This document shows, piece by piece, positions 31,701 to 58,713 of a stretch of DNA of 62,606 nucleotides (positions within the stretch are counted from its first letter, which is position 1; every line of letters starts with the position of its first letter). Under the pieces are notes generated by a model that saw only the letters and a program-made list of their open reading frames with translations, had not been told where the DNA came from and did not search any database. The DNA comes from an uncultured bacterium (GTDB lineage Bacteria; Verrucomicrobiota; Kiritimatiellia; CAIQIC01; Lenti-01), in contig CACXEY010000254.1 in the NCBI GenBank assembly GCA_902766695.1, positions 1 through 62,606 of the forward strand. The letters run 5' to 3'. The position numbers were made by a program, and so were the translations under genes.

Positions 31701-34700
31701 GTCGTCGCCGGGCACTCGATCGTCTCGTACAGCGCCCCCGTCGCCCCGTCCGTCGTCATCGGCCCCACTTCCAGCGTGTACGCCGTGTCCGCCACGTTGT
31801 CCCACTTCACCGACAGGCTCGTGTCCAGGATGTTCGTCACGCAGAAGCCCGTCACCGCCAGGCTCGCGCTCGTCGTCCCCGTGCAGTTCGCCGTCCCGCT
31901 GCTCGACTCCCCGTCCGCCTTGGACTGGATCGTGTAGTAGTACTGCCTCTGCGCGTCCAGTCCCGTCACCGTCAGGCTCGTCGAAGCGGTTTCGATCGTC
32001 TGCTTCAACGTGCCGCTCGCGCTGCTGCCCTGGTACACCTTGACCACGTACGTCTCCGCGTCGGCCACCGCGTCCCACTGCACCGTCATCGCGTGGCGTC
32101 CGATGCTCTCCGGCACCACCCACGCGCTCGCCGGGGCCGCCGGCGCCGACTTCGTCGTCGCCATCGACTCCGTCCACGCCCCGTACTGCGGTGCGCCGCC
32201 CACCAGCACCCCGTCGCTCGCCGCGACGTGGAAGTAGTACGCGTGCCCCGCTTCGAGCTCTTCCAGCTCCGCCGACAGCTTGTCGGCCGTCAACCCGGTC
32301 CCGCTCGAAATCACGCACCCGCTCCCCGAGTAGTCCCCGCCCTGCTTCGTCAGCGTCACCTTCGCCTTCTTCAGCGCCGCCCCCACCGGCTTCGTCACCG
32401 TCCCTACCGAATCCGCGGCCGCCCGCGCTTCCAGCCGCACCTTCACGTGCGCGTGGCCCAGCGCCCCGGACGGCAGCGCCAGCGAACGCGAATACGTCGC
32501 GTACGCCGTCGAGATGTCCGTCGCCGACTGCACCGGACCGTCCGTCCAGCTGTCGCCCCCGTCGATGCTGTAGCTCAGCGTCACCGCCGCCGTCGCCAGG
32601 TAGCCATCGTTGTACCACCGCCCGTGCAGGAACGTCACCGTCCCCGCGCTCGCCCCCACCGTGCTGAACTCCGCGCTCTCGATGCCCGGACTGCCCGCGC
32701 CCGCCAGCACGATCGAGTTCTCGCTCAGCCGCGCCCACGCCGGATACGTCTCCCGCAGGAACCCGTAAGTCGACTGCTGCGTCGCCTCCGGCGCCGTCCC
32801 CCCGCCCGTGTACGTCCAGTCGTCCACCCCTTCCTCCAGGTCCCCGTCCGTCCGCGTCTCCTGCGCCGCCACTTCCGTCGAGGTCGCCCCTCCGCACTTC
32901 GTCACCTCGTACTTGTACAGCGTGCCCGCCGACGCCCCCGGAGCCTCGCTCCAGGCCACCGTCATGTGGTTCTGCCGGATGCTCTCGCCCCAGATTTCCT
33001 CCGGCGGCGGCTGCGGCACCGCCGTCGAGGCCGGGATTTCCGTCCACGCGCTCCGCTCCGCCGCGCCCCCGCCGACCGGCGTCAGAACCGTCCGCACCCG
33101 GATGTAGTATTCGCCGCCCGCGGAGAGGCCGCTGAAAATCTTGCTCGTCGAAGACTGCGGCCCTTGTATTGCCGTCGCCGTCCCGCACTCGTAATCACCG
33201 CCGCCGACCCCGCGCGCCGTCACCTTCAGGTTCGCGATGCTCGCCCCCTGCGCCCGCCAATCCTCGTTCGGCGGATTCAGGTCGTAGTTCGTCGCGTGCT
33301 TCGTCCGCAGCAACAGCTTCACGCCGCCCGCCAGCGCCTCCGCCGGCAGCGGGATGCTCCGGCTGCTCGCCGTCGCCGCCGTCGCCCCGGCCGCCGTCCC
33401 CGTCTCCTGCACCAGCGTCCAGTTCGCCCCCTCGTCCAGCGAATAGTACAGCGCCACCTCCGACATCGTGCTCCGGTTCACGTACATGTGCGAGAACTCC
33501 ACGTTCGCGCTCACGTACCCCGCCAGGTCCAGTTCCGGCGACAGGATGCCCGGCTCGATGCTCGTGCTGCTGTACTGCCCCCACAGCTTGTGCACCCCGT
33601 TCTCGTACTTCGGATAGCTGCTCGCCGTGCTCCCGCTGTACTCCCGCTGGTACGTCCAGTCCGTCGCGCTCGTCCCGAACGCCAGGTTCTGCGCCGGGCA
33701 CTCCCCCGCCGTCGCCGCTTCCGCCCCGGCCTTCGCGCACGGCGTCAGCTGCACCTCGTACTGCGTCGTGTACCCGCTCTCCGCGTACGCGTCCCACCCC
33801 GCCGTCAGCGTGTACCGCCCCGCCTCCGTGATGGCCAGCCCCGTCGGGCCGTTGAACGGCGTCGTGCTGCTGCTCCCCGCCGTCCACGTGCTTCCCGCGC
33901 CGTCACCGCTCCCCACCGCCTGCACGCGGAAGTAGTACAGCGTCTCCGGCGCCAGCCCCGTCAGCACCGTCGTCGTCCCCGGCACGTTCCGGCTCTGCGT
34001 CGCCGCGCACTCGTAGTCCCCGCCCGTCCGGTACTTGTACACCTTGATGTCCTTGATTCCCGCCCCCGCCGGCTTGTATGCCGACACCGACGTGTCGTAG
34101 TACGCCGCCGCCTTGTCCGCGCGCAGCTGCAAGCGCACGTTCTTCCGCCCCAGGACCACGGCGGGCAGCGCGATTGTCTTCGTCACCCAGCTCCCCGTCC
34201 CCTCCGAGCAGCTGCTCACGTTCGTCCACCCCGCCCCGCCGTCCAGGCTGTAGTACAGCGTCACCGGCGAGAACTTCGCCAGCGTGTTCGTCCCGTCGTT
34301 CGCCTTCCGGTGGGCGAACTCGATGTACCCGCTCGCCGCGTCGCTCAGGTCCAGCGCCGGCGTCTCCACGCCCGGCTTGTACGTCGTGTTCACGTACTGC
34401 CCCGCCAGCCAGTGGCCGAACGTTGAATGCCAGTACGGATACGCCCCCGCCGCGTACCCCGCGCTCGAACTGTACCCCTTCCGGTACGTCCAGTCCGTCG
34501 CCGAATGCGTGTCGTACGCCCGCGTGCTGCTCGGGCACGTATCCCCCTCCTGCACCGGCGTGTCCGAATCCAGACCGCACGTCGTCCACTCCACGTTGTA
34601 GCTCGCCGCCCCGCTCACCGCGTCCCACGCCAGCGTCATCCCGTTCCGCGTCTCCCCGCTCGCCGCCACCGTCGCCGGCCCCGGGAACCCGCTCGTCGTC

Positions 34701-37700
34701 TGGTTCGCCGTCGGGCTCCAGGCGCTCTCCTGCCCGTCCGTCCCCACCGCCTTCACCCGGTAGTAGTACTTCGTGCTCGCCGCCAACCCCGTGATGGCCT
34801 GGCTCGTCCCGCCCGTCACGTCGTAGCTCGTCACCCCCGACGAGAAGTCGGACGCCGTGCTCCGCTGCAACACGTATTTGCCCAAGTCCGTCGTGTTCCC
34901 CGCCGTCCAGCTCACCGTCATGCTGTTGCGCGTCACGCTGCTGAACGTGATGGCCGACGGCGCCGTGTACGCCGCCGTCGTCGCGTTCCCGGTGGACGAC
35001 CACGCGCTCTCCTGCGAATCCGTCCCCACCGCCTTCACCCGGAAGTAGTACTTCGTGCTCGCCGTCAGCCCCGTGAGGCTCTTCGTCAGCGTCCCCGCCG
35101 CCACGTTCGCGCTCGAAACCCCGCTCGCGAACGTGCTGCTCGTGCTCCACTGCAGCACGTAGTGGTCCAGGTCCGTCGTGTCCCCCGCCGTCCACGTTAG
35201 CGTCATCGCGTTCCGCAGGATTCCGCTCGCCGCGGGCGTCCCCGGCGCCGTGTACGCCGTCGCCGTCCCCGTCGCCTCCACCCACACGCTCTTCGCCGTC
35301 GGATTCGCCGCGCTCCCCTGCAGCGCCTGTACCCGGAAGTACACCGTCTCGCCCGCCGTCAGCCCCGTCACCGTGTAGCTCGTCCCCGATGTCGTGCCCT
35401 CGACCGTCTTGTAGCTCGTCCAGCTCTCGCTCGTCCCCGTCCCGCTGTAGTCCCCGCTCCCCTTGCTCAGCCGAGAAACCTTGACGTTCGTGAGCCTCGG
35501 GCTGATGAAATACGCCGTCCCGTACGCATGTGCGTTCGGCGCAACCAACTTGAACGCCACCCGGTCTCCTTCCCCCCAAGCCCCGGCAGGCACGTCGAAC
35601 TGGGCGGTTGTCGGGACGTCCGTCGACTCGGGCGCAGCCGCCCCAAGATAGCACCACGGCCCATCGTCGATCTGGTAGTAAACCTCCACCGTCCCGTCCG
35701 ACAGCTGTCCGTCCCCGATTCCCAGGTTGAACGACGCCACCGTGAACGACACCCGAATCCCCGTCATTCCCGCAATCGGGAAGCTTTTGCTTTCGAGGCC
35801 ATTCCCCGCAACGCCCGGAATGTGGCCCGAAGCATACCCCGGTGCGGTGCTCAACGTGGAGCTCGTGGTGGTCGCCGTCGTTCCGATGTACTTCCAGTCC
35901 TTCGTCCCGAAGCTGCCCAGCGCCAGCGCCGCCGTCCCCGCGCTCTTGTCAGCCCACGTCGACGGCGCCGCCGTCTTCGTCACCTGCACCCCGTACCCGA
36001 CAGCCCCGCTCTGGACGTCCGTCCACGTGAACGTCACCGCGTTGCGCACCGCGCTCGCGCTGACCGTGTTCGGCCTCACCCCGGCCTTCACCCCCAGCTC
36101 GTCGCTCCAGTCCCCGTCCGGAGCCTTCCGCACCCGCGCGTAATACGTGCTCCCGCTCGTCAGCCCCGTCACCTCCTTGGCATATCCCGGAATTCCGCTC
36201 GTCCCCGGCGTGTACGTGTACGAAATCTCGCTGAGCATCGCCAGATATTCGTTGTTGTCCGGCTTCGCCCAGCGCAACCGCACGCCCTGCTCCCCGCCCT
36301 TCAGGGAACTCGTGCTGTACGTGAACGTCGAAAATGCCGTCTGGCTCGCCGGCTCGTACGTGTCCAGTTTCGTCCAGCTCGCCCCGCCGTCGTAGCTCAC
36401 GCTGAAATCCAGATGCCGTTTGGCGTTGTTGCCGTCCCCGCCGGCGCGCATCTTCGTCGTCACCGACGTCACCTCCCCGTAAATGGGTTCCGTGTAGATG
36501 CACGAACCGACCGCGCTGAACCGGATTTCCCCGTCGTAAGTCGTGCTCTGGTTGTTCCTCGGGCAGGTGTTCGCGCTGCTCACCCCCAGCGTGTTGCTGA
36601 ACGTGTACACATGCCCCGCGCTCGTGATGTTCCGCGCCGCCGTCGGATACGAACTCTCGTTCGCCCAGACCGAATCGCTGTCGAACGTTTCCGTCACTGT
36701 CGACGAAGAGAACGAGCTGCTCGTCCCCGTCTGCACGTCATACCCCGCCGAGTCGCTCGACAGCTGGCTCCAGTTCAGCAGGTAACTCGTCCCGTCCACC
36801 CCCGTCGCCCACACGTTCGGCCCCTGGGACGCGATGGTCGTGATGCTCCGCGACGCCGGGCTCGTCGCCAGGTAGTTCGCCGTCGTCCCGTCACCGCCCT
36901 CCGCGTACGCGTACGCGTAAATGGTATAGGTCTGCTCCGGCGTCAGTCCCGTCACCTCCGCGCTCGTCCCCGCCCCCGCGAACGCCACCGTCCCCGCCCC
37001 GATTGCGTCACCCGCCGAATACGCCACCCCGTCCGTCGGCGCCGTCACGCTGCTCCCGCTCGGCACCACGATCAGCAACGTCTTCAGCGACGCCGTTTCC
37101 CCGCTAGCCGCCGCCCAGCTCCCCGCCGTCCACGTCATCGACGCCTTCCGGCTCCCCACCGTCCCCGCCGTCAACCCGCTCGCCTGCCCGCTCGGCTCCG
37201 TCGCCAGCGTCCAGAAATCGCTCGTCGCCGGAGTGGTAGCATACGAGGAGAATTTCAGGTTTGCGGAAGTAGCGGAATTCGGGGTGCGCCCGTACAACGC
37301 CAGATAATAATGCGTTGCAGGCGTTGCCCCCGACACCGCGATGTTCGCGCTCGCTATGGCCCGGTGGACGAGGGCCTTGGTCCCGCTGGAGGCCGGATAT
37401 TCCTCTGCGCTGCCCCATGCGATGCTGGCCTCCGTCTGCGCCGCCGGCCCCGACCCGTCCGTGGGCGCCGTCGGCGAACTCCCCGCCTTTGCCAGCAACA
37501 CGTTGTGGGTCGCCCCCGTCCCGCGCGAATATGCCACCGTGAACTGATTCACGCCCACGCCCGTCACGCTCGTGATGCTACCGCTCGTCGACGGCCGCAC
37601 CCCCATCACCTTCACCGTGCAAGTTGCCGTCTGCCCCAGATAATTGTCCGTCGCCGCCGCCGTCGCCGTGATTGTCACGTTCCCGTACCCCGTGCTGCCC

Positions 37701-40027
37701 CTGGTCACCTCGCCGCTGCTCGACCCTACCCCGGCCACCGCAGTCTTCCCGCTCGTGTACGTGATGGTCGGGCTTCCATGCCCTGCCGTCGCCGTCACCG
37801 TCACGCTGGAGTGGTCACCGTCCAGCGTCACCGACGAAGGCGAAAAGCTCAGCGTCTGCGCCGCCTTGTTCACCGTCAGCGTCGCCGTCACGTTGTCCGC
37901 CGCGTTCCACAGGCCGTTCCCCGCCTGGCTCGCCGTGATGGTCGCCGACCCCGCCCCGGCAATCGTCACCGTGCTTCCGCTCACCGTCGCCACGCTCGAA
38001 GGGCTGATGCTGTACGTCACCGTCCCCCCCTGCGCCGTCGCGCTCAGCGTGAACGTCGCGTCCCCGTACGTCTTCTCGACGTTACTCAGCCCCGTGATGG
38101 ACTGATTCCCCTTGTTCACCGTGATCGTCACCTCGTCCGTCCGCGCGGTGTAGCCCGTGCTCGCCGCCCGGGTCACGTCGAACACGAACTTCCCGGCCTT
38201 CGTCACCGTCAGCACGCCCGCGCTCGTCAAGGACCCCGTTCCCGTGGTCCCGGTCTTCAGCGTTGTCCCGAACGTGTACACCGCCGTCCCTGTCCCGTTC
38301 CCTCCGGTTCCCACCAGCGTGATCGTGCGCCCCGCGTACGTGTGCGTCAACTCCGTCACCGACACCGCCGTCGACTGCGGCACGTCCGCCGGCCTGTACG
38401 TCACCACGATGGACTTGCCGCTGATGGATTTCGTGAAACAGCTCTCCGACAGCCCCGAAAACGCCGTCGTGTCCAGCTTGACATGCCCCAAATCGGTAGA
38501 ATTGAAGCTCCCCTGCGTCGTCAGAATCGTCCATGTTGCCGTACTCCCCGAGTCGAACGATGACCCCGGCGTCAGCTTCAAATTAAAGTCCGAGCTGATT
38601 GCCCACCCACCGTCATTCATGGTGGTCAGGCTTTCGCTCACGTTCTGCCCCGTCGTTCCGACATCCACCTTGATGGTCGTCGACGCCTTGATGTTCATCA
38701 CCCCGACTTTGACCGCCCCATTCAAATCGATGTACGTCCCTGCCGTCGCGTTTGTAATGGCCAAGTTCGTCACAACCCCTGCCGACGTCAGCGCCAGCTT
38801 ACCGCCATTCAGGACCAGCCCCTGCCTGTCCGCCTTCTTCGTTAGGCTCGTCAGCGTCAACGTCCCCGCCCCTGTCTTGTACATTTCAGGTGCATCTACC
38901 TTGGGCTTCCAATTTGCAATCGTGATGTTCCCCGCCCCGCCGACCGTCGTCGACACCGTGTTCGAAAATGTCCCCGAAAGGTTCAGCGAGGATCCCGATG
39001 ACACCAGCAACGACCCTGCCGTGCTTTGGTTGTAAATGAGTCCACTCAAAGTGTTGTTCCCCGACGAACTCAAAATCGCACCCTTGCTGCTGGGCCCCAC
39101 ACCTTTGTACAGGATTTTCTCCGCCACGGTGATCCCCCCCGTCAGCTCCAGCTCGCCGCCCGATTGGATGGTCGTCATGCCCGCCCCGCTTCCCAGCGCG
39201 CTGTTGTTCGAAACCCGCAGGACGCCCCCTGTGACCGTGACTGCATTCGTGAACGTGTTCGCCCCGCTCAAAACGACCGTACCAGTTCTGGAACTCTTCG
39301 AAAGCTTCCCGACGTTGTTGGCGATCACACCGCTGATGGTAATCGTCTTTCCAGAGGCCGCATCCAAGGTCACATCTGCATTCAAATAGCAAGTATCGCT
39401 GAACGTCAAATTCCCGTTGTCTGCCCAAACATACTGGGAATTGTCGAATGAAACGGGTGCGGCGAACTCGTGTTTGACCGTCGCAAGGTTCTTTATGCCG
39501 TATTTGATGTTGATACCGCCATCGCTGCCCTTGTTGATGGTTCTGGCCGTCGATGCCCCTGATTCGAATTCAAGGTAATTAACTTTATACCATGCATCAA
39601 GCCACATGGTGGTCTGGGCATTGTTGTTGAAGTGGATGTCTCGGTAAGTGCTGCTGGCATCTTGATTGGCGGTAGTAGCATCAGGCCGCTTGTAATAAGT
39701 GCCGCCACCACCAGATCCAGTGCACCACGGATACGGATCCCAGTACCAATTCCCGGCACTCGGATCTGGCCTCCAATAAATTGTCTCTGCCTCTGCCTCC
39801 CTCGCGCCCCCCACCCACGCCCCGGCCACGACCGCCGCGACGGCGGCCCACCGCGCCACAAGTCCCATGCGTTCCCCGGGGGCTCTGCGTGTTTTCATTC
39901 CGTCCATTGTGCATTGTGCATTGTGCATTGTGCATTGCTCTTTGTGCATGTTCATCGTCTTTTCCTCCGTCGTTGCGGTCGTGGTGTGCATGTCGATTCG
40001 GCGAAAAACTTTGAAAAACCGGTTCAT
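16793..40027 (-). CDS. giant secreted multi-domain surface protein 1 (~7,744 aa): PATR beta-helix, Ig-like, many FN3, jelly-roll modules with Asp-boxes, LamG-like and cadherin-like Ca-motif modules, unknown C-terminal domain
   Basis: Uninterrupted minus-strand frame. Domain grammar is present throughout (see findings) and there is a signal peptide. The ATG at 40027 overlaps the DUF1016 stop (ATGA) and follows AGGAGG plus 7 nt. Alternative in-frame starts lie at 39955 (GGAGGAAAAGACG-ATG), 39907 and 39898. The ORF-track extension to 40981 is rejected. Confidence 0.9.
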   Translation of the reverse strand: MNRFFKVFRRIDMHTTTATTEEKTMNMHKEQCTMHNAQCTMDGMKTRRAPGERMGLVARWAAVAAVVAGAWVGGAREAEAETIYWRPDPSAGNWYWDPYPWCTGSGGGGTYYKRPDATTANQDASSTYRDIHFNNNAQTTMWLDAWYKVNYLEFESGASTARTINKGSDGGINIKYGIKNLATVKHEFAAPVSFDNSQYVWADNGNLTFSDTCYLNADVTLDAASGKTITISGVIANNVGKLSKSSRTGTVVLSGANTFTNAVTVTGGVLRVSNNSALGSGAGMTTIQSGGELELTGGITVAEKILYKGVGPSSKGAILSSSGNNTLSGLIYNQSTAGSLLVSSGSSLNLSGTFSNTVSTTVGGAGNITIANWKPKVDAPEMYKTGAGTLTLTSLTKKADRQGLVLNGGKLALTSAGVVTNLAITNATAGTYIDLNGAVKVGVMNIKASTTIKVDVGTTGQNVSESLTTMNDGGWAISSDFNLKLTPGSSFDSGSTATWTILTTQGSFNSTDLGHVKLDTTAFSGLSESCFTKSISGKSIVVTYRPADVPQSTAVSVTELTHTYAGRTITLVGTGGNGTGTAVYTFGTTLKTGTTGTGSLTSAGVLTVTKAGKFVFDVTRAASTGYTARTDEVTITVNKGNQSITGLSNVEKTYGDATFTLSATAQGGTVTYSISPSSVATVSGSTVTIAGAGSATITASQAGNGLWNAADNVTATLTVNKAAQTLSFSPSSVTLDGDHSSVTVTATAGHGSPTITYTSGKTAVAGVGSSSGEVTRGSTGYGNVTITATAAATDNYLGQTATCTVKVMGVRPSTSGSITSVTGVGVNQFTVAYSRGTGATHNVLLAKAGSSPTAPTDGSGPAAQTEASIAWGSAEEYPASSGTKALVHRAIASANIAVSGATPATHYYLALYGRTPNSATSANLKFSSYATTPATSDFWTLATEPSGQASGLTAGTVGSRKASMTWTAGSWAAASGETASLKTLLIVVPSGSSVTAPTDGVAYSAGDAIGAGTVAFAGAGTSAEVTGLTPEQTYTIYAYAYAEGGDGTTANYLATSPASRSITTIASQGPNVWATGVDGTSYLLNWSQLSSDSAGYDVQTGTSSSFSSSTVTETFDSDSVWANESSYPTAARNITSAGHVYTFSNTLGVSSANTCPRNNQSTTYDGEIRFSAVGSCIYTEPIYGEVTSVTTKMRAGGDGNNAKRHLDFSVSYDGGASWTKLDTYEPASQTAFSTFTYSTSSLKGGEQGVRLRWAKPDNNEYLAMLSEISYTYTPGTSGIPGYAKEVTGLTSGSTYYARVRKAPDGDWSDELGVKAGVRPNTVSASAVRNAVTFTWTDVQSGAVGYGVQVTKTAAPSTWADKSAGTAALALGSFGTKDWKYIGTTATTTSSTLSTAPGYASGHIPGVAGNGLESKSFPIAGMTGIRVSFTVASFNLGIGDGQLSDGTVEVYYQIDDGPWCYLGAAAPESTDVPTTAQFDVPAGAWGEGDRVAFKLVAPNAHAYGTAYFISPRLTNVKVSRLSKGSGDYSGTGTSESWTSYKTVEGTTSGTSYTVTGLTAGETVYFRVQALQGSAANPTAKSVWVEATGTATAYTAPGTPAASGILRNAMTLTWTAGDTTDLDHYVLQWSTSSTFASGVSSANVAAGTLTKSLTGLTASTKYYFRVKAVGTDSQESAWSSTGNATTAAYTAPSAITFSSVTRNSMTVSWTAGNTTDLGKYVLQRSTASDFSSGVTSYDVTGGTSQAITGLAASTKYYYRVKAVGTDGQESAWSPTANQTTSGFPGPATVAASGETRNGMTLAWDAVSGAASYNVEWTTCGLDSDTPVQEGDTCPSSTRAYDTHSATDWTYRKGYSSSAGYAAGAYPYWHSTFGHWLAGQYVNTTYKPGVETPALDLSDAASGYIEFAHRKANDGTNTLAKFSPVTLYYSLDGGAGWTNVSSCSEGTGSWVTKTIALPAVVLGRKNVRLQLRADKAAAYYDTSVSAYKPAGAGIKDIKVYKYRTGGDYECAATQSRNVPGTTTVLTGLAPETLYYFRVQAVGSGDGAGSTWTAGSSSTTPFNGPTGLAITEAGRYTLTAGWDAYAESGYTTQYEVQLTPCAKAGAEAATAGECPAQNLAFGTSATDWTYQREYSGSTASSYPKYENGVHKLWGQYSSTSIEPGILSPELDLAGYVSANVEFSHMYVNRSTMSEVALYYSLDEGANWTLVQETGTAAGATAATASSRSIPLPAEALAGGVKLLLRTKHATNYDLNPPNEDWRAQGASIANLKVTARGVGGGDYECGTATAIQGPQSSTSKIFSGLSAGGEYYIRVRTVLTPVGGGAAERSAWTEIPASTAVPQPPPEEIWGESIRQNHMTVAWSEAPGASAGTLYKYEVTKCGGATSTEVAAQETRTDGDLEEGVDDWTYTGGGTAPEATQQSTYGFLRETYPAWARLSENSIVLAGAGSPGIESAEFSTVGASAGTVTFLHGRWYNDGYLATAAVTLSYSIDGGDSWTDGPVQSATDISTAYATYSRSLALPSGALGHAHVKVRLEARAAADSVGTVTKPVGAALKKAKVTLTKQGGDYSGSGCVISSGTGLTADKLSAELEELEAGHAYYFHVAASDGVLVGGAPQYGAWTESMATTKSAPAAPASAWVVPESIGRHAMTVQWDAVADAETYVVKVYQGSSASGTLKQTIETASTSLTVTGLDAQRQYYYTIQSKADGESSSGTANCTGTTSASLAVTGFCVTNILDTSLSVKWDNVADTAYTLEVGPMTTDGATGALYETIECPATTLARSDKGNGWFYLGGNANYPKYYVKSSGTAAQKAEDQGHVLSYSSAGAPGIQSRWFSTFGAKSATIEFLHGRWFNDGKNSALQVFYSIDGGTTWTLAGDIASTANAVPGSAASGGEKTVTRFALPERALGQRTVAIRVQAPDAAAGGSYGYGAEIKDLRIKLEAYPQSASTFSGTVSGGIQNLSGLAIGRRYWFRLTATETYNSQTFTAEAVQTAATRQKTAGVVQSQGFEGAGENGALDTTAWGYDIKYNVVGTTTWRTESQRLSTDPEVKVVDGENPMYGDRALRMSGSAAAGTYGVVEFANKDFGAGHSENVVVTIPFAACDLAEGENLWVSYSTDGGTAWVAPEGLATLTKGGWTMGKIGRGGGDVMNQNWPYNRGTNSTTRPAGDAYSFELHGIRQLAVRVAFCGNSGGAKHYFYIDEVKLERLATPPTDVTASANTHGTVDLGWTPAGGQSVVVIRGQDMRNPPASLDLNSLPHGYEVVTNDTGGNYWVNTADPGVHATATDPGVTGGWKYFYYFYGALDNGDGTYTLSKECVQREVIVRGMVEAIASQGWDGWDVHPWGYKKGRTTNPGRAGDCGYWAYNQSGDTLPYEWAHFVEGSWEYDGQTGRNTSKGVVPSGVKDYAYYYGAGKTYGPAGRTDPDCTNQLGVSSYTNYFGTNCFRLSGGSGWTWYGPHTWTNNEGQVKTGTDIVINTNNPAIQFDTIDLSGYKNVEFSFHYAQTYSGGGNYMHVAISTNGNGADGTWMSYDNKNDGMWRQRTDTSRDYGLQLQTMTGDFSGGNVDFYDESRAPYGNPFVLQVPDAVTQLTVRLTFFDTTAVDQRKALIFVDEVRLTGEVAIEAPKPYISEIGKNQFMVHWEPVADADTYDVEVTEVCDESKIKLAQAFVVDGCPKDWEASSSGATFTKTASRLYASVSGTAHDHGLNLSGGSGALTSPEVGGTTNLQFYAKAYNASGSAKLIVEAKGDKDTEWEEIGSWTAAQLTGSWKGYTNSLPNRQWTQVRFRREGGSGTSDSIYVDDIEFHGEGVYTVAGVKSFPGVSATNQVVTGLASGKRYLAHVRAVGAPAGVVVRSAWGETADWTAGDFAVAADGFEMTRSTWGNPGSGIAVIAVNDGKAFSDVPAPTGTPAVGSAVGQGVVIARTTSAQSGAGFEHVVPYGSRTDAVDQKYVVYWKHGSYWEGRLETNVVLNTYVCAAADAFAVTNGTSMPATGDQAAFNTGKGWAGPWHVETVPWSGAWAGQETRNDSRPYGLLETNQLWGTGGNMLVLYPTNENKKVEIKRTLATPLSKSSEWWGMFTMKIYYSGPNKWAGIQLLDESGASKVSIGKLWNAKDSSNANEGKVIGFQQGSTTKASNYVLNDGQTCVVVFKWDGSKMWLKTFYRGSDTEPQWARTATFPGFDVSETLSMDDIHAIRLVAENGSGLLYPVWFDEIRIGSSWEELVGKEPVPPFPVATAHAVMDGKEMIRLDWVKPAAGTDTAPDPDVERPAATRVYVLEKNVNSPFTADQLAWKTHGVGESSEIGDAVVTLLYNGSGTELEHVVLPGTSHRYAFISYASGVYAESALEVSTDSNTGGPLTMDKYGETEYVNPFSYTNSFEVSGSGTHTEWRGGNGFTNTAGNTVHFWATGDGQNGTTANAATWTPVKPADAPAKMGTEIPNYKVSAGNVMKVSPSANTSASLGRTLAQDWGGEAGKTFYIAYRMAYTYDGVNKWAGLKLIDNSGSHRGVFVGKPGTSDSSKQNLLSIDPGGGLGIGFGNYSLNAGAGNAYVVVAKVQWTAADKVNVYAMAKYADGETEFPEEEPTTGWNAQWINMTFSGVHMIELLAGGTGSDVTPGDTYFDEIRFGGSWDDLLGPKVPTDVWMAGLSEDVFLGDYVVNNITSKPQGPGQSAKHLLSGAAEPSGAAWAAGVDAAWVRNITTETPPQTEWIATNQFKTTGTLYAYGSATGDGETVYSWQHGDDRYKRNTYTVAALPAPVLHATNDASYRVPLGWDRGSSGGRTFEEVMVVKYSSAYAANTISANNLKPEDGKAYYAGDVIYHSNPENYMTVIYRGTAQYYTNRPCSSHSYYAAYTVNNSYYSPRSAVADATPSNTGGDIDIDGDPTDWVGTPAEPWNSSIFSEGELIWTDKRGEERTDNPERCPSADITEFRVKADSTNVYFLLQLNGGTATMPTNAHVAVGLDTRLSTESTDLNWLADESYTFLGGAYYTNSPAFHYPKIQMAVHWVGGDRNEWQVELYDTDSASWHAPLWWKASSALDGSGNPVASATPCVEWVVPRNELGLDGVTGDAAVTGRFSVATFLNSGSWNNEAVGVVLIASNSCAAVDALAIAPYGSNDKDYALGAWDEGLKNNNVDFWMDARFGATALLSDTAPSTPANPEPANDGTGAGNPVLQWSNSTDAEGFVTGWLLEVADTPNFGGDGGHTENGPVLYRVNIEMTPELAAAIAATPSRKISFKPMTNCKEFWWRVRARDNAGQLSAATVQHYTVTGKQDNDGPVATLKYVGSQVGKFLGDSEYRAEVERNGEAYSILDSEFGGSSAEFGFVIEWYDINGVYATNHMRGWVNDYDGVDDCDIGPSKWPAGKVEGDYTWNILATNGDGTVFGRVSPNWDLMMVNTNRTSANPPSPLNITVHTSGGEKTLTWEHHGGTGEPELLIPDAMGEYQPAQGWVIQWGYDDAFLGVGTESGTTFSGQTLRAYDGGTEISCNGVQYLTNYVSGVFGLPEYDPEVDLYLTLSAEDCCTSDQWGEQPWDPWPPSTERDHQGSYRGLSCNEVNVLTGGWCADGPNPARNVTVNQLIKINVKDNDVVPPIASTERWAATAVDEDGTEFKPSMLVSTNNIAKSSANTTWATITGKLPRREGVQRDTMYQLTDAMMVGGTRPLSFFFNVFDDYIESGTQRGATQTTTPASTGHTLTNSAFVVKTWDPALNEGAGAWVASTENTGNFVADGSYISDMVHDGSGWHEAAGTKGTGPSTVLRWDFATSDINSLFGMTDILSYIGTHSDGVTNVVQLHAWDSDDNRANDQADAEITFGRLLFSDDDATAPEISRSNLLGTGTNMVKFGTLALDTFSKGDAIGSGSNPHYGALQAFEGMTLGTAQVVQDGSVAVKSKAANGTTGSATLYYTATENPGVAYMESGMNGASYLASSKYFEWVLGGTETAYWLADNLTFKSYVTAYGPTRYTLTVQGEVTETVYTPSASQKWTVWQNGAATSAELTATNQVALKGSSSVHTAAVQSVSIPLTSISSGTISYDAGARYNRTDNRTLKLQISLDNGASWTDVTTIKPSESAATGEQKAYVKNFSDIRISGSPLVPRTGQMLVRWYASNNEGVDSGVNGNAGFNLWNPKVTTVKGTAVETELGTVVVDKEENGEGQYFASTNLVSIVFSQSVEATGTQKKTFRLYGWRATGSVAEDEADDTFSGNGNWGINNLELHGILSGPKGQEVTDHDLNQGAWTNTLEVQDGLVTGYDTVRSGLWVASNSADNCHAWVPDFTVYYPAASAKEGAEFWSSNLVELAYAEAELASGGDPQFADDDGSWTLASGAEIVAGTTESRNWLSLPGGDSKAASASQTIVVAAPERGLEGVTVIVQAKVRSVLAAGADGAANGFTLGVDFQTSAGDTLSIGEEETFSATKAWREYTLGPVSVANSSVGKVAVSIAEETTAGTGLEVDSVVISVSAFAPMVNSAPGTGKNGEMVSAQLKVRTQGLSAETLAKGMPLSVKSGSTQPDNQHYKIVSRVYDYDHDRTADARAAAVTNAFWLYDNDEAAPQTGSQFGGPFGVKVNGTLLPTKQRINSGAASVWALSDHSIAEAAGSSANSKLGFALDYYDYSGWRVTDLQFRKLNPATGAEAGTTTVLSGGTVDAAGTLAGGYSRDAGNTGDLGEANVPSATVGWEQAVLDFYTLHAAEFASDAIVTNAVYAGVTDRDNDRAGDTLATGIAHVGNFRVMDQDVSAPHYRNASTSKFKGILVATNVADGATLQDLDSADYGHYALGGSLSAHNGSLDDIATRAFTIYDGELREVSASKQFAVTADLVDPSDRTSGRSNTGVKRGTAATEGASSALASSITLTNTYLAWETAATNGIVVSNALAHYQLPGTGWSSSDGQTKMAASVSFTTWTWDEFTYDDVGNLLPGGQDYRDLWLRIHAYDADADRQEDQKYAQLAGPKITVRDNDTLWPNPPTGLEVNGTPVTTVGEMTRETAPWTNNLGNVNVRFTAATDQDPTGLDTKKSGVVRYHLAGEDATITHTSTNAGKKITTSVDGEKLKANLGAVTMDQGFGKYQLFAVDGDNDRPGDGLASDPVDVPLAYDITKPTKIGYVSGGSPRRLTANPDNTDDPTTQFDLSWPIYGVGPDDPADPNYIETTYKASAYETLSPWYSYKIYFTNYEESAIASDDNPDVEAKSWVYQTFMSDPTAANYYTNWAFVMTNSPVQDPTAPKDTGTGRSTAYDSLGRVAANVGTTNQSVRLYDLDFDNHYIVIIVGVDKAGNEGPAGMWSWATNNTIKFAVTAGVVRTTAAISGMLESADLEDIGMAVPGEGAPSKAAVLHWLAAGQDAKTGEFKHAVNKQYDLIYRDASSFTEKGTEQWNMASTAGNSGTSKTNWNYQADEGLATPGRLRFYRASYTGRWQDTKPGTDEKQIPLASMEVYSMNNVVLSEGFNYVSLQGVPWTNTFRGVFGTDPSMWPAATNGAASDDDVTKVEFYSSGTTTMTNGSYFFAYDKKATEADKKFRWFDDKGADVTDKDLPANFFARPFGILLPKANITTNNGTVETNGWWKDHTELKSQYGRNRTVLAMLWHPIMQVPTNGVPVAATASTSSAKPGARDGTASKQVFQQTVVRGKGVYNLLSLNLPVAVHPSKLMLVEFDKETGEPTSGKMKAGNPWDATTDKLYVVDTETKEPRGDTTMYCDANGTWRYNKNRAEIASTDTPIHPNDMIVLISGKKEEGAGDTWNWTYSPEDFYQPPTRNMGR
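38600..39450 (-). other. autotransporter-associated beta-strand (PATR-type) beta-helix region of giant protein 1 (approximate limits)
   Basis: TGTVVLSGANTFTNAVTVTGGVLRVSNNSALGSGAGMTTIQSGGELELTGG...KTGAGTLTLTS...LVLNGGKLALTS. The phrase VTVTGGVLRVSNNSALGS maps to 39181-39240. Confidence 0.7.
39788..39898 (-). other. predicted Sec signal peptide of giant protein 1
   Basis: MKTRRAPGERMGLVARWAAVAAVVAGAWVGGAREAEA / ETIYW: a basic n-region, an Ala/Val h-region and an AEA cleavage-like site. Confidence 0.7.
39905..39939 (-). repeat. perfect tandem heptamer (plus strand cattgtg x4 plus cattgct; coding strand CAATGCA) inside the 5' leader of giant gene 1
   Basis: Read directly. It encodes QCTMHNAQCTM. 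Each unit carries an ATG, so ATGs occur in all three frames. Confidence 0.9.
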
Positions 40028-41118
40028 GGGCAAACCTCCTGGGCGGGGTTGTTCAGTGTCTGGCACGGATGCTGTGCCTCGAAAATCGCCTTTTGGGCCT
40101 CGATTTCGGCCCGGAGCGCCTCCGCGCTGGGAAGGACCAGCACGTATTTGGAGGCGAAAAGCTGCTCGCTCCCCTTGAGCACCGAATAGCGCGCCACGTC
40201 GGAATCCGTGTCCGCGCACAGGAGGATGCCGAGCGTCGGGTTGTCCCCCTCCCCGCGGCGCTTCTCGTCGAACATCCGCACGTACATGTCCATCTGCCCC
40301 ACGTCCTGGTGCGTGATCTTCGACGTCTTCAAGTCCACCAGCACGAAGCACTTCAGCAGGTAGTTGTAGAACACCAGGTCGATGAAATAGTCTTCCTTCT
40401 CCGTGTGGATCCGGTGCTGGCGCGCCACGAAAGCGTAGCCTTTCCCCATCTCCATCAGGAACTTGCCCAGATTGTCCAGGATGCGCGTCTCCAAATCGCT
40501 TTCCGTGAAGTCCGTCCGCGGCGCCAGCCCCAGGAACTCCGCCACCACCGGGTTCTTCACGAACTCCAGCCGGTCCTGCAACGGCGCCGTCAGCCGCCGC
40601 ATCTCCGCCTTCACCGCCCCCTTCGACTGCGACAGCAGCGTCCGCTCGTAGTACTGCGACGAAATGTTCCGCTGCAGCGTCCTGACGCTCCACGTTTCCG
40701 ACGCGGCCTCGTCCAGATACCACTTCCGCGCCTCGGCGTTCTCCACCTGCAGAAGCTTCAGGTAATGCGACCATCCCAGAAGCCCGCCGGATTTTGGCGA
40801 CAGTGTCTCCAAAATTGGGAAAGTGCGGTAAAACTGCACATATTTGTATAGGCTCCCGAAGTCGAACCCAGCTCCGTATTCTTCGGTCAATTGCGCCGCC
40901 AGCTCCTTGACAGCCTGCCGCCCGTATTCCGCCCTCTCCCCCTTCAACTCCTCTTCGGCGATGCGCTTCCCGAGCAGCCAATTCCGCTGCACCAGCGCCG
41001 CGTTGACGGCCCGGTACGCGCCCGTGCGCGCCGACTCGATGATTTCCCGCGCGTCCGCGAGCAACCCCTTGCCGGCGGCGGCCGCCGCCCGGACATCCTT
41101 CTGGAGCGTCCCGCCCAC
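40024..41118 (-). CDS. DUF1016 / YhcG-like PDDEXK-family nuclease
   Basis: N-terminal YhcG-type region (NAALVQRNWLLGKRI, GWSHYLKLL). PDDEXK core IDLVFYNYLLKCFVLVDLKTSKITHQDVGQMDMYV. GTG start overlapping the upstream TAG (TAGTG); its stop overlaps the next ATG (ATGA). Confidence 0.85.
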   Translation of the reverse strand: MGGTLQKDVRAAAAAGKGLLADAREIIESARTGAYRAVNAALVQRNWLLGKRIAEEELKGERAEYGRQAVKELAAQLTEEYGAGFDFGSLYKYVQFYRTFPILETLSPKSGGLLGWSHYLKLLQVENAEARKWYLDEAASETWSVRTLQRNISSQYYERTLLSQSKGAVKAEMRRLTAPLQDRLEFVKNPVVAEFLGLAPRTDFTESDLETRILDNLGKFLMEMGKGYAFVARQHRIHTEKEDYFIDLVFYNYLLKCFVLVDLKTSKITHQDVGQMDMYVRMFDEKRRGEGDNPTLGILLCADTDSDVARYSVLKGSEQLFASKYVLVLPSAEALRAEIEAQKAIFEAQHPCQTLNNPAQEVCP

Positions 41119-41231
41119 TATGCGACCTCCGCCTCCCTCCGGGCCTCCGCGTCTCCGCGCGGAGCGCTCTCCGCGTCTCTGCCTATCCGCGCCTCCGCGT
41201 GCCCGAAAACCTTCTCAAAGAATGCGTTCAT
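41118..41231 (-). CDS. 37-codon leader ORF (MNAFFEKVFGHAEARIGRDAESAPRGDAEARREAEVA)
   Basis: Not in the ORF track. Its ATG lies 3 nt after the A1 stop, in the same conserved AAGGAGAATGAGAG-ATG context as the giant gene 2 start. Its first residues resemble the giant-gene N-termini (MNRFFKVF, MSAFSNNF). Confidence 0.35.
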   Translation of the reverse strand: MNAFFEKVFGHAEARIGRDAESAPRGDAEARREAEVA

Positions 41232-41253
41232 CTCTCATTCTCCTTCCGCGCCC
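41219..41253 (-). promoter_or_regulatory. conserved 35-nt cassette/leader junction (stop + Shine-Dalgarno + ATG), copy 1
   Basis: agaatgcgttcatctctcattctccttccgcgccc is identical, except for one base, to 58679-58713. Confidence 0.8.
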
Positions 41254-41447
41254 CGGCGGGCCGAATCCGTCTCCCCGTTTGGCAGTTTGGTGGGGTGGTG
41301 GTTTGACGGCACCCCTGCCGCCTGCCGGGCCAACCGCTCCGCACGGTGCCGCCGCAGATACTCGCACACGCCGTGGAGGGTTCCCCCGCCCTTTTCCCAG
41401 AGGCGACGCCGCGGAGCCATGATTTCCTCGTAGATTTCCCTATTCAT
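41235..41447 (-). CDS. small PIN-associated protein A1 (70 aa), unknown family; putative antitoxin/partner
   Basis: MNREIYEEIMAPRRRLWEKGGGTLHGVCEYL.... It is a paralog of A2 and A3 (MN..DPV..E....R.K.WE..GGT..G). Its start overlaps the PIN-1 stop by 8 nt (ATGAATAG). Confidence 0.5.
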   Translation of the reverse strand: MNREIYEEIMAPRRRLWEKGGGTLHGVCEYLRRHRAERLARQAAGVPSNHHPTKLPNGETDSARRGAEGE

Positions 41448-42225
41448 CGATCCGCTCCTCCAGACGTTGCTCCGGTGTCGCGATGGCCGGACAGGCATAC
41501 CCGGCCACCGCCAACGTCGCGGCCACCTTCGGAATCGTAGCCGAATTGGCGATGTGCCTGCAGTTCCACGACAACAGCAAATCCGCTTTCCGGATGGCAG
41601 CCAACGCCATGTGCATGGCATCCGTCCGGTACTTTGCATCCAGCTTGGTCGCCGACATCAACATGTCAGCCACTGTCTCGGCCTCCCTGGAAATGTCCAT
41701 CGACTCGAAACCCTTGATGAACTCCAAGCGCCTTGCCACCGCCTCGGAGTCGCCATCCTCCGCCTCCGTCCAGACGGCCTCCGACACCACGGGATGCCAC
41801 TTTTCCCCCTCCTCTTTCCACCAGCGGAGCGTCGCCTCCCTCATTTGCGCCTTGCGGGGATCTTTCGATGGCCGTCCCGTCAAATAGCTGACGAAGCTCG
41901 TCTCCAAGTACACCACCGGCTTCCCCTCCCGCGCACCGTACTCCGGCCCCTCCCCTTCGCAAACCATCATGGACTCCCCCGTTTCCCGGCCCATGAATTG
42001 CCCCCAGTCCCCGCGCAGCAGCCCCGCCAACGACAAATCCTCGTCGATGTCCGGCCAATGCATCCCCGTTTCGTCCACCTCGACGTGGACGAGCTGTTCC
42101 GGCGTCGCATTCTCCAGGCGCGGATTCCCCGCAATCGGGAACGAGAACAACACGCTGCCCCCGGGCCGGACAGCGATCCGCCCGTCCTCGAACGACACGT
42201 CAACCTTGTGCCGGATGCTCGGCAT
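41440..42225 (-). CDS. DUF2442 domain fused in frame to PIN-domain (VapC-like) toxin PIN-1 (261 aa)
   Basis: The N-terminal part MPSIRHKVDVSFEDGRIAVRP...NPRLENATPEQLVHVEVDETGMHWPDIDEDLSLAGLL is DUF2442-like. No stop precedes MMVCEGEGPEYGAREGKPVVYLETSFV...TDAMHMALAAIRKADLLLSWNCRHI (PIN, from about 41970). An internal start at 41970 is possible. Confidence 0.7.
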   Translation of the reverse strand: MPSIRHKVDVSFEDGRIAVRPGGSVLFSFPIAGNPRLENATPEQLVHVEVDETGMHWPDIDEDLSLAGLLRGDWGQFMGRETGESMMVCEGEGPEYGAREGKPVVYLETSFVSYLTGRPSKDPRKAQMREATLRWWKEEGEKWHPVVSEAVWTEAEDGDSEAVARRLEFIKGFESMDISREAETVADMLMSATKLDAKYRTDAMHMALAAIRKADLLLSWNCRHIANSATIPKVAATLAVAGYACPAIATPEQRLEERIDE

Positions 42226-42527
42226 CAACCTTCTCCCACCACGCCTTTCCCGGCCCCCGCTGCGTACCCCGGCGCATCCTCGCACACCATCATCGCGCCA
42301 TCAGCCAACGCGGCCGTTCCCTCGGCGGCACCGTCTCCCGACGCTCCGGCGCGTGTCCACGTCCCCGCCGCCTTCTTCCGCGCGACCTCGGCGGCGACGC
42401 GCGCGCGGAACTCCCGCGCGACCTCCTCGCAATGCCTGCTGTAGCCTTCCAGCGTCCCGTCGCATTCATCCCAGAGCTTGCGCCGGGCCTCGTGGATTTC
42501 CTCGATGACCGGATCGATGACGTTCAT
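42225..42527 (-). CDS. small PIN-associated protein A2 (100 aa)
   Basis: MNVIDPVIEEIHEARRKLWDECDGTLEGYSRHCEE.... ATGA overlap with the PIN-2 stop and TGATG overlap with the DUF2442 start. The tail MMVCEDAPGYAAGAGKGVV copies the linker that precedes PIN-1. Confidence 0.5.
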   Translation of the reverse strand: MNVIDPVIEEIHEARRKLWDECDGTLEGYSRHCEEVAREFRARVAAEVARKKAAGTWTRAGASGDGAAEGTAALADGAMMVCEDAPGYAAGAGKGVVGEG

Positions 42528-43024
42528 GGCATGGCCTCCAACTGGTCCTTGGGCGAAACGAGCAACGGACAGCGGTATCCGGCCTGTTCCACCACGCTTT
42601 GGATGAGAGGCAACTTCCTCTCGTTCACGATGTCCTGGAAATTCCAGCTCAGCAGGATGTCCGCCCCCCACACCGACGCCAAGGCGATGTGCGTAGCATC
42701 GTTGTCTTTTTTCCTCTTTACGGCTCCCGAGTCCAGCAACACGCCCGCCAGCACGTCGGCCTCGGCGCGGGGAGACCACGACTCCATCCCGGAAATCATC
42801 TTGCCCCTCCGCAACGCATCCGCAGCATTCTTTCCCTTGGAAATCTCGGCCCAAACGAGATATGACACCACGGGCCGCACCTTTCCCGACATTTGCCGCC
42901 ACCACGCCACCGACATCTCGTGCCTCTCCTCCTGCAACGGGTCATCCAAATCCTGTCCCGCCCAATGGCTGACGAAGCAGGCGTCCAGGTACACGACGGG
43001 CTTCTTCTGTCCATTCCCGCTCAT
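42524..43024 (-). CDS. PIN-domain (VapC-like) toxin PIN-2 (166 aa)
   Basis: MSGNGQKKPVVYLDACFVSHW...PVVSYLVWAEI...NDATHIALASVWGADILLSWNFQDIVN...GYRCPLLVSP. Acidic positions D/E/D/D are conserved. ATG 43024 follows a GGAGG-rich tract. Confidence 0.75.
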   Translation of the reverse strand: MSGNGQKKPVVYLDACFVSHWAGQDLDDPLQEERHEMSVAWWRQMSGKVRPVVSYLVWAEISKGKNAADALRRGKMISGMESWSPRAEADVLAGVLLDSGAVKRKKDNDATHIALASVWGADILLSWNFQDIVNERKLPLIQSVVEQAGYRCPLLVSPKDQLEAMP

Positions 43025-43264
43025 GCCGCCCCCTCCCCTCCGCGCCTCCGCGTCTCCGCGCGAGCCCTCTCCGCCCCGCCCGATCCCCTCCGGGCAAAGT
43101 CCATGCGGACAAGACCGCGCGGCCCTGTCGAGGCAAGCAGTTTTGGAATAGGATTGGGCATGGACTCTCTCCATGTAAATTTACCCCCTCCCCCATCCCC
43201 GCGCAACCCCGGCCCGCCCCCCACGCGGTAAAACGCTCTACCGGAAGGCGCCCTGCGGGCGCAG

Positions 43265-58691: not shown

Positions 58692-58713
58692 CTCTCATTC
58701 TCCTTCCGCGCCC
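58679..58713 (-). promoter_or_regulatory. conserved 35-nt cassette/leader junction (stop + Shine-Dalgarno + ATG), copy 2
   Basis: agaatgcgctcatctctcattctccttccgcgccc; one mismatch to 41219-41253. Confidence 0.8.

What the first reader, a model, noticed from the sequence alone, without database searches (positions are those of the whole stretch)
40024..41231. DUF1016/YhcG PDDEXK nuclease gene sits inside the giant-gene leader, flanked by two similar leader starts
In unit 2 the conserved junction ATG (58691, MSAFSNNF...) opens the giant ORF directly. In unit 1 the same junction ATG (41231) opens only a 37-codon ORF (MNAFFEKVFGH...). Its TAG overlaps the GTG of the nuclease gene, and the nuclease TGA overlaps a second leader-like ATG (40027, MNRFFKVFRR...) that opens giant gene 1. 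MNAFFEKVF and MNRFFKVF look like the two halves of a duplicated leader start around an inserted gene. A stand-alone nuclease that is translationally wedged between a toxin cassette and a surface-protein gene is atypical. It could be a defence or selfish gene that has captured this expression context.
Basis: partly seen in the sequence, partly recalled or inferred. Interest (0 to 1): 0.6.

Follow-up and report, generated by a model that had tools for sequence, protein, structure and literature searches.

The report
Operon-embedded YhcG nuclease before giant gene
A predicted DNA-cutting enzyme gene of a common but untested "defence candidate" family sits, start and stop codons overlapping its neighbours, in a chain of small toxin-like genes that runs into a 7,700-residue surface-protein gene of a gut Kiritimatiellae bacterium. 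This layout recurs in relatives, so it is not a one-off insertion with a duplicated target.

Summary
The sequence facts hold. The coordinates, the overlapping stop/start codons and the shared junction are real, and the locus assembles identically from two other datasets.

The gene is an intact DUF1016_N + YhcG_C PD-(D/E)XK nuclease. It matches PADLOC candidate PDC-S02 and is under purifying selection.

It splits a standard giant-gene leader. The junction plus a REP-like repeat lies upstream. The Shine-Dalgarno site, microsatellite and signal peptide lie downstream. The gap is 1,239 nt here, against 56 nt in unit 2.

The proposed duplication (MNAFFEKVF / MNRFFKVF) is not significant at the nucleotide level, and the window holds no recombinase.

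Nucleases 76-95% identical also lie upstream of giant genes in four other contexts, and the giant genes are not orthologous in the three I could compare. More distant relatives (71-78%) sit in type I R-M, TIR or McrBC-like islands.

A 97%-identical copy in another genus has the same 5' junction but is fused to a PIN gene. Its flanks are only 75-84% identical.

Best reading: a promoter-less, operon-embedded nuclease module in a translationally chained PIN/partner/DUF2442 array, with modules reassorted by recombination at the shared junctions. The function is untested.

Earlier scan notes on this window had already suggested cassette shuffling.

The parts
40024..41118 (-). YhcG/DUF1016 PD-(D/E)XK nuclease gene (GTG start, 364 aa). 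Codons 1-351 are the conserved family body. Codons 352-364 (CQTLNNPAQEVCP) are a lineage-specific tail.
   Evidence: Pfam PF17761 and PF06250. PADLOC PDC-S02 E=9.7e-133. E240, D247 and D262-L-K264 are invariant in 12 homologues. 15 synonymous versus 8 non-synonymous codon changes against the G003 copy. GC3 is 0.87.
41118..41231 (-). 37-codon linker ORF (MNAFFEKVF...REAEVA*). It consists of the junction start, a REP-like dispersed repeat and the Shine-Dalgarno site for the nuclease.
   Evidence: Positions 41209-41126 match more than 10 other contigs of the genome and 43074-43026. G003 has a 21-codon version that keeps the same start, end and frame.
41219..41262 (-). Type-A junction: end of the upstream partner gene (..RRGAEGE*), AAGGAG Shine-Dalgarno site, TGAGAGATGA, and the first 4 codons of the linker ORF.
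   Evidence: 91% identical to 58722-58679. The exact 19-mer is also present in G001 and G003.
39956..40041 (-). 3' boundary of the nuclease: CAGGAGGTTTGCCCATGAAC (Shine-Dalgarno site plus ATGA overlap) and the ORF start MNRFFKVFRRIDMHTTTATTEEKT.
   Evidence: No relative in 36 family genomes by DNA search. The pattern is shared only with two boundaries in G003:C150. The profile made from those two ranks this site first in the genome, but with E=0.76.
39788..39979 (-). Conserved 3' part of the giant-gene leader: GGAGGAA Shine-Dalgarno site plus ATG 39955, the (CAATGCA)x4 heptamer array, ATG 39898 and the signal peptide (..ARWAAVAAVVAGAWVGGAREAEA).
   Evidence: 72% identical over 87 nt to 58622-58537. 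The signal-peptide DNA has relatives only at giant-gene leaders and, five times, in the G003 array.
16793..39787 (-). Giant gene 1, mature part (about 7,660 aa). It is the last ORF of the chain.
41235..43024 (-). Upstream chain: PIN1a (43024-42524), partner AT1a (42527-42225), DUF2442~PIN1b fusion (42225-41440), partner AT1b (41447-41235). Every boundary overlaps or leaves a gap of at most 3 nt.
58679..58722 (-). Unit-2 copy of the type-A junction. Here it opens the leader and ORF of giant gene 2 directly.

Best explanation
The nuclease is a promoter-less, operon-embedded DUF1016/YhcG module. It forms one link in a chain of seven ORFs: PIN1a, AT1a, DUF2442~PIN1b, AT1b, the 37-codon linker ORF, the nuclease and giant gene 1. 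All stop/start boundaries overlap or are at most 3 nt apart.

Inferred: it is transcribed from upstream of PIN1a and translated by termination-reinitiation coupling. The links are joined by a small set of conserved junction and spacer sequences: a stop, a Shine-Dalgarno site, an ATG, REP-like repeats, microsatellites and a signal-peptide segment. Because these sequences recur at several arrays and giant-gene leaders in related Kiritimatiellae, homologous recombination at them reassorts the modules. That places the nuclease between the 5' and 3' parts of a standard leader, without a transposition-type insertion or target duplication.

The protein itself is most likely an Mg-dependent DNA endonuclease of the defence-candidate or selfish 'hitchhiker' kind. 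This follows from the family and from the genomic context of relatives. It has not been tested.
For: Shown:
- Domain content and an intact E-D-(D/E)xK motif (motif from PMC1189080).
- A PDC-S02 match.
- Purifying selection and host-like GC3.
- All boundaries overlap or have gaps of at most 3 nt.
- Promoter- and terminator-like sites in 39500-43700 do not exceed chance.
- The leader is split, 1,239 nt versus 56 nt.
- The G001 leader is uninterrupted and in frame.
- The G003 copy is 97% identical from the junction to codon 351, while the flanking PIN and partner genes are 75-84% identical. Downstream it is fused to a PIN.
- The identity break coincides with the natural C-terminus of the family (..EQHG*).
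- Relatives at 95%, 85%, 84% and 76% identity lie upstream of giant genes. In the three with DNA available, the giant genes are non-orthologous.
- A 76% relative is wedged by 4-nt overlaps between hsdM and hsdS.
- Across ten spacers from five genomes, the frame set by the junction ATG has 0 internal stops. The other two frames have 35 and 10. In that frame GC3 > GC1 > GC2.
Against: - Co-transcription and coupling are therefore inferred.
- No recombination intermediate was seen, and no orthologous giant-gene-1 locus was found. The direction of events (gain, loss or swap) is unknown.
- The spacers are T-poor repeats, and several are related by descent. Open frames are therefore less surprising than the raw counts suggest.
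- The 3' boundary has no significant relative.
- No member of the family has a tested function.
Confidence: 0.55

Rival explanations
1. First reader's model. A discrete insertion of the nuclease gene into a pre-existing giant-gene leader duplicated the leader start (MNAFFEKVF / MNRFFKVF), in the manner of a target-site duplication by a selfish element.
For: - The leader homology is split by 1,239 nt in unit 1 against 56 nt in unit 2.
- Both starts overlap the preceding stop and read M-N-x-F-F-(x)-K-V-F.
- The alignment score of 11 is reached by only 0.77% of genome windows.
Against: - The profile of junction-type starts does not find 40027.
- Much of the resemblance (..GTTTTCG..) is the usual 5' edge of the dispersed REP-like repeat.
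- There is no recombinase in the window, and no terminal inverted repeats were noted.
- The same nuclease with the same 5' junction is followed by a PIN gene in G003 and in GCA_016648615.1.
- The arrangement recurs in other lineages.
Confidence: 0.15
2. Deletion origin of the 3' boundary. The ancestor looked like GCA_016648615.1: nuclease fused to a PIN, then a partner gene, then the type-A junction, then the giant gene. Internal deletion removed the PIN body and most of the partner gene. This left a PIN C-terminal tail (CQTLNNPAQEVCP*) and a decayed partner-gene start (MNRFFKVFRR) fused to the leader.
For: - The two closest relatives carry the nuclease-PIN fusion starting at the same codon.
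- PIN tails read C-P-x-L-x-S-P-x-x-x-L-E-x-x-P*, and PIN-to-partner junctions read TTGGAGGnnnTGCCATGAAC. The nuclease boundary reads CAGGAGGTTTGCCCATGAAC.
- Pairwise score against the L041 PIN/partner junction has p about 0.002 by shuffling.
Against: - The nhmmer profile of seven PIN-to-partner junctions does not find the nuclease tail at E<=10.
- The other pairwise scores are marginal, p 0.02-0.9.
- The DNA of the key relative could not be fetched.
Confidence: 0.2
3. Functional linkage. The nuclease acts on or for the giant surface-protein genes, for example by cutting DNA to drive their recombination, mosaicism or phase variation. That, rather than hitchhiking, is why it is kept in front of them.
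For: - It recurs upstream of giant genes in five contexts. In the three compared, the giant genes are non-orthologous.
- DUF1016 proteins are enriched (odds ratio 17) among neighbours of predicted programmed-inversion targets (PMC9881135).
- The giant genes are mosaic paralogues, and leader 1 carries a heptamer array.
Against: - The same subfamily at 71-78% identity sits in type I R-M, TIR or McrBC-like islands, or behind an XRE gene, with no giant gene.
- G001 keeps its giant gene without the nuclease.
- The enrichment near inversions is explained by R-M hsdS shufflons.
Confidence: 0.1

Closest known systems
DUF1016/YhcG family (Pfam PF17761 + PF06250; COG4804), predicted PD-(D/E)XK nucleases (Kosinski et al. 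2005, PMC1189080)
   Same: Both domains are present at full length. The E-D-(D/E)xK motif is intact (E240, D247, D262-L-K264). Identity is 56-88% to thousands of homologues across phyla.
   Different: The first 17 residues and the last 13 residues are lineage-specific. The natural stop after ..EQHG is lost, and the ORF runs on into junction sequence.
PADLOC PDC-S02, an untested single-gene 'phage defence candidate' found by embedding in BREX, DISARM or type I R-M systems (Payne et al., bioRxiv 10.1101/2024.01.29.577857)
   Same: Strong model match (E=9.7e-133). It shares the habit of sitting inside another operon with overlapping stop and start codons, as in the 76%-identical relative between hsdM and hsdS.
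   Different: The host operon here is not a known defence system. It is a PIN/partner/DUF2442 chain that ends in a giant surface-protein gene.
Toxin-antitoxin cassette arrays, such as those in chromosomal integrons
   Same: Tandem small toxin-like modules separated by repeated sequence. Module content differs between close relatives.
   Different: There is no integron integrase in the genome and no attC-like sites were identified. Modules are translationally coupled rather than separate cassettes. The PIN genes precede their partners.
Extended signal-peptide regions (ESPR) of very large secreted proteins
   Same: A long N-terminal extension precedes a classical signal peptide on giant surface proteins. 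The start MNRFFKVF is loosely ESPR-like.
   Different: There is no Pfam ESPR match. The extension is built of REP-like repeats and microsatellites, varies in length between relatives, and also occurs in front of PIN genes in G003.

Membership tests
DUF1016/YhcG nuclease family | N-terminal DUF1016_N helical domain | tested here: met
   PF17761 E=3.7e-40, residues 23-159, profile positions 2-137 of 137.
DUF1016/YhcG nuclease family | C-terminal YhcG_C PD-(D/E)XK domain with the E-D-(D/E)xK motif | tested here: met
   PF06250 E=1.4e-50, residues 185-336. E240, D247, D262 and K264 are invariant in 12 homologues. The motif is defined in PMC1189080.
DUF1016/YhcG nuclease family | PD-(D/E)XK fold shown by structure | tested here: inconclusive
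   The AlphaFold2 model is poor (pLDDT 47). No PDB relative was found by sequence or by profile.
DUF1016/YhcG nuclease family | Nuclease activity | not testable with these tools
   No biochemical data were found for any member in the papers read.
PADLOC PDC-S02 (phage defence candidate) | Match to the PDC-S02 models | tested here: met
   PDLC04807 E=9.7e-133 over residues 14-350.
PADLOC PDC-S02 (phage defence candidate) | Embedded in or next to a known defence system | tested here: not met
   The neighbours here are PIN, partner, DUF2442 and giant genes, which give no PADLOC hits. The feature is met only in relatives at 72-78% identity.
PADLOC PDC-S02 (phage defence candidate) | Protection against phage | not testable with these tools
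   PDC systems are declared untested by their authors.
Mobile insertion with target-site duplication | Significant direct repeat at both ends | tested here: not met
   Smith-Waterman score 11, reached by 0.77% of genome windows. The profile search misses the second copy.
Mobile insertion with target-site duplication | Own recombinase or transposase | tested here: not met
   None among the window's ORFs scanned against Pfam. There is no integron integrase in the genome.
Mobile insertion with target-site duplication | Empty site in an orthologous locus | tested here: inconclusive
   The same-genus genome G001 lacks the whole 26.7-kb unit 1. No orthologue of the giant-gene-1 N-terminus was found in 36 family genomes or in the protein collection.
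Type II toxin-antitoxin pair (nuclease plus 37-codon ORF) | Conserved small partner protein | tested here: not met
   The 37-codon ORF is mostly a dispersed repeat, is 21 codons long in G003, and is absent from the 84-85% identical relatives.

The most novel reading that the evidence does not exclude
The PIN/partner/DUF2442/YhcG modules and the giant surface-protein genes of these Kiritimatiellae form a so far undescribed kind of modular operon. Every link, including long spacers built of REP-like repeats and microsatellites, is kept translatable in one frame and ends exactly at the next start. The shared junction and leader sequences act as recombination handles that move defence or toxin modules between the 5' ends of different giant genes. 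This may tie their expression to phase-variable leaders, such as the heptamer array.
Probability: 0.15. Interest if true: 0.7.

Novelty: new variant of a known kind. Interest (0 to 1): 0.4.

Why it matters
DUF1016/YhcG genes are among the commonest unexplained passengers inside restriction and BREX operons. Showing that the same subfamily rides in a quite different host operon (a toxin-like chain ahead of giant adhesin-like genes), with identical overlapping-codon wiring, supports the view that they are promoter-less hitchhikers. It also gives a second genetic context in which to test their function.

The chained architecture, with spacers that appear to be translated, could explain how very long operons in high-GC bacteria avoid polarity. 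It could also explain how accessory modules spread among giant surface-protein genes. None of this changes the family assignment, and the specific 'duplicated leader' idea does not hold.

Tried and rejected
- **Target duplication.** The alignment and profile tests were not significant.
- **Nuclease tail as a PIN remnant.** The multiple alignment looks collinear, but the nhmmer profile gives no hit. I kept it only as a weak rival.
- **Integron-like cassette array.** There is no integron integrase.
- **Structured RNA in the linker or leader.** Folding z-scores are -1.3 and +0.2, and there is no Rfam match.
- **Own promoter or terminator.** The consensus scans are at chance level.
- **Empty-site search.**
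  - No DNA relative of 40075-39956 in 36 family genomes.
  - No orthologue of the giant-gene-1 N-terminus.
  - The genome-contig scan returned only 56-69% identical homologues from other phyla.
- **Structure.** The AlphaFold2 model was too poor for a fold search, and there are no PDB relatives.
- **Key relative's DNA.** The GCA_016648615.1 contig could not be fetched.

Full report
**Setting**

The window is the whole longest contig (C254) of a 318-contig, 3.04-Mb, 67.5% G+C metagenome-assembled genome. Named close homologues of the nuclease come from Kiritimatiellae.

Everything relevant lies on the minus strand. Housekeeping genes flank the block: ComEC, a solute-binding protein, a TPR protein, HisG and a HemN-like radical-SAM gene on one side, and a PAS-SpoIIE phosphatase on the other. 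Neither flank holds a recombinase.

**Checking the observation**

The coordinates are right.
- The nuclease ORF runs 41118..40024 (GTG start, 364 aa).
- The 37-codon ORF runs 41231..41118. Its TAG shares one base with the nuclease GTG.
- The nuclease TGA overlaps ATG 40027 (ATGA), which is in frame with a 7,744-codon ORF.
- The 20-mer GGAAGGAGAATGAGAGATGA occurs only at 41247 and 58707 in the whole genome.
- 41262-41219 matches 58722-58679 at 91% over 44 nt. 39979-39898 matches 58622-58537 at 72% over 87 nt.

So two consecutive parts of the unit-2 leader, 56 nt apart there, are 1,239 nt apart in unit 1, with the nuclease between them.

The locus is not an assembly artefact. A contig of ERZ27280006 is 99.99% identical over 21 kb, and a contig from run ERR3211459 is 100% identical over 43064-39910.

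**The gene**
- Pfam gives DUF1016_N (E=3.7e-40) and YhcG_C (E=1.4e-50).
- PADLOC gives PDC-S02 (E=9.7e-133).
- In an alignment with 11 homologues (57-85% identical), E240, D247, D262 and K264 are invariant. This is the E-D-(D/E)xK motif described for the family (PMC1189080).
- Against the 97%-identical copy in genome G003, 15 codons differ synonymously and 8 non-synonymously, with no indels in 351 codons.
- GC3 is 0.87, like host genes.

The gene is therefore intact, under selection and long resident in high-G+C hosts.

No solved structure is related by sequence. My AlphaFold2 model was too poor to use (pLDDT 47). PDC systems are explicitly untested candidates, found by 'guilt by embedding' (10.1101/2024.01.29.577857).

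**The chain**

From ATG 43024 to the end of giant gene 1 (16793) there are seven ORFs:

PIN1a, partner AT1a, a DUF2442~PIN1b fusion, partner AT1b, the 37-codon ORF, the nuclease, and the leader plus giant gene 1.

Their boundaries are ATGA, TGATG, an 8-nt overlap, a 3-nt gap, TAGTG and ATGA. Unit 2 is wired the same way: PIN2, AT2, an Unstab_antitox gene, then the leader plus giant gene 2. Promoter-like and terminator-like sites in 39500-43700 do not exceed the shuffled expectation.

**What the 'leader starts' are**

Codons 10-33 of the 37-codon ORF are a copy of a dispersed REP-like repeat (..CACGCGGAGGCGCGGAG..). This repeat occurs on more than ten other contigs and just upstream of PIN1a. 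The heptamer and nonamer microsatellites of the two leaders are also dispersed.

In the same-genus genome G001, the junction ATG, a REP-like repeat (78% identical to 41265-41135), a microsatellite and a signal peptide form one uninterrupted frame into the giant gene. So the 37-codon ORF is indeed the 5' part of a standard leader.

The second start (40027) is a different matter.
- Its alignment with the first start scores 11, a value reached by 0.77% of all 48-nt windows of the genome.
- A profile of junction-type starts from relatives finds 41231 (E=4e-18) and 58691 (E=1.5e-4) but not 40027.
- The shared ..GTTTTCG.. is the usual 5' edge of the REP-like unit.
- The boundary CAGGAGGnTnnnCCATGA recurs only at two module boundaries of G003:C150. 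A profile of those two ranks 40041-39996 first in the genome, but with E=0.76.

I therefore do not accept a duplication.

**Relatives**

G001 is syntenic on both sides. It has a single giant gene (79-81% identical to giant gene 2). It lacks window 16793-43526 entirely and also lacks PIN2-AT2. It shows the undisturbed leader, but it is not an empty site for the nuclease.

G003, assigned to another genus, carries the nuclease at 97% nucleotide identity from the junction to codon 351. The neighbouring PIN and partner genes are only 75-84% identical. Downstream, the nuclease runs in frame into a PIN gene. The identity break lies exactly where the family normally ends (..EQHG*).

Gene contexts of further relatives:

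| Identity | Source | Context |
|---|---|---|
| 95% | GCA_016648615.1 | PIN, partner, DUF2442~PIN, partner, 117-nt gap, nuclease~PIN fusion, partner, giant gene |
| 85% | four metagenome scaffolds | nuclease, PIN, partner, giant gene |
| 84% | GCA_024712465.1 | nuclease; its stop overlaps ATG of an in-frame leader (MMLSKLFGFFG..) into a giant gene |
| 80% | | beside FitA-PIN |
| 78% | | type I R-M / RadC / TIR island |
| 76% | | nuclease, small genes, Fic, giant gene |
| 76% | | between hsdM and hsdS, with 4-nt overlaps |
| 76% | | after an XRE gene |
| 72% | | McrBC-like island |

The giant genes in the three contexts with DNA available (85%, 84% and the 76% Fic context) are not orthologous to giant gene 1 or 2. 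No orthologue of the giant-gene-1 N-terminus exists in 36 family genomes or in the protein collection.

The nuclease is thus a mobile module whose usual habit is to sit inside other operons. In this Kiritimatiellae clade it recurrently sits at the head of giant-gene operons.

**Spacers look translated**

I examined ten spacers or leaders from five genomes, 3,072 nt in all.
- The frame opened by the stop-overlapping ATG has no internal stop. It either runs into the giant gene or ends at, or within 22 nt of, the next start.
- The other two frames have 35 and 10 stops.
- In the open frame GC3 > GC1 > GC2.
- One G003 spacer stays open for 240 codons.

The elements are T-poor and several spacers are related by descent, so this is suggestive rather than proven. 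It fits a chain held together by translational coupling.

**Mechanism, with what is shown and what is inferred**

Shown:
- the gene is an intact member of the family;
- the boundaries overlap;
- the leader is split;
- the module has different neighbours in close relatives;
- the module boundaries coincide with shared junction sequence on the 5' side and with the end of the conserved coding body on the 3' side.

Inferred:
- expression by read-through transcription and termination-reinitiation;
- reassortment by homologous recombination at the shared junction and leader sequences;
- a defence or selfish nuclease function.

A possible route to the present 3' boundary is deletion from a nuclease~PIN-partner ancestor. 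The tail resembles PIN tails, and the boundary resembles PIN-to-partner junctions. The profile test fails, however.

**Verdict**

The sequence observation is real. The 'duplicated leader around an inserted gene' reading is not supported. 'A selfish or defence gene using a captured expression context' is reasonable but typical for this family. What is new is the host operon, and possibly the architecture of that operon.

Noticed in passing
window 39905-39939: A perfect (CAATGCA)x4 heptamer array lies between the two in-frame Shine-Dalgarno/ATG starts of giant gene 1 (39955 and 39898). A change in copy number would shift the frame for the upstream starts, so it is a possible phase-variation switch. 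The independent contig L036 ends inside it. The same heptamer repeat occurs on at least five other contigs.
   Followed up: partly
window 43020-43530; sORF 41126-41209; many contigs of G000: A genome-wide family of REP-like, partly palindromic repeats (..CACGC[AG]GAG[AG]CGC[AG]GAG.. and others) has very many copies. It fills the 0.5-kb gap between giant gene 2 and PIN1a and forms the inter-module spacers.
   Followed up: partly
window 16793-43526 versus L021 (G001:C104): The same-genus genome has one giant gene where this genome has two. It lacks the whole 26.7-kb unit 1 and also PIN2-AT2 (window about 59005-59789). The C-terminal 1.5 kb of giant gene 1 is 69% identical to the G001 gene, and that of giant gene 2 is 90% identical.
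   Followed up: partly
L013 (G003:C150) 1620-1890, 4650-5370, 6575-7072: Spacers between PIN/partner modules in G003 carry five copies of the giant-gene signal-peptide DNA (..RWAAVAAVAAGAW..GAREAEVA). They are open in one frame for up to 240 codons and end exactly at the next PIN start.
   Followed up: partly
window 41440-42225; L013 2750-4381; P0005: There are in-frame fusions of unrelated modules to PIN domains through a shared linker (..M.V/C.E.G.P.YG..KPVVYLE). DUF2442~PIN occurs here, and nuclease~PIN in G003 and GCA_016648615.1. The same linker motif ends AT1a and AT2, where no PIN follows.
   Followed up: partly
window 41235-41447, 42225-42527, 58913-59239: The small proteins that follow each PIN gene share an N-terminal motif (..[ED]I.E.RR[KR][LI]W..GGT..G) and have no Pfam or NCBIfam family. 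The gene order is toxin-first.
   Followed up: no
leaders in window 39788-39870, 58449-58530; L021; L041; L045: Non-orthologous giant proteins of this clade share a homologous signal peptide (..RRFAARWAAVAAVAAG.W.G..A.A). Their N-terminal mature parts are unrelated.
   Followed up: no
G000 contigs C182, C308, C282: There are three further DUF1016 paralogues (26-35% identical) in the same genome. Their contexts were not examined.
   Followed up: no
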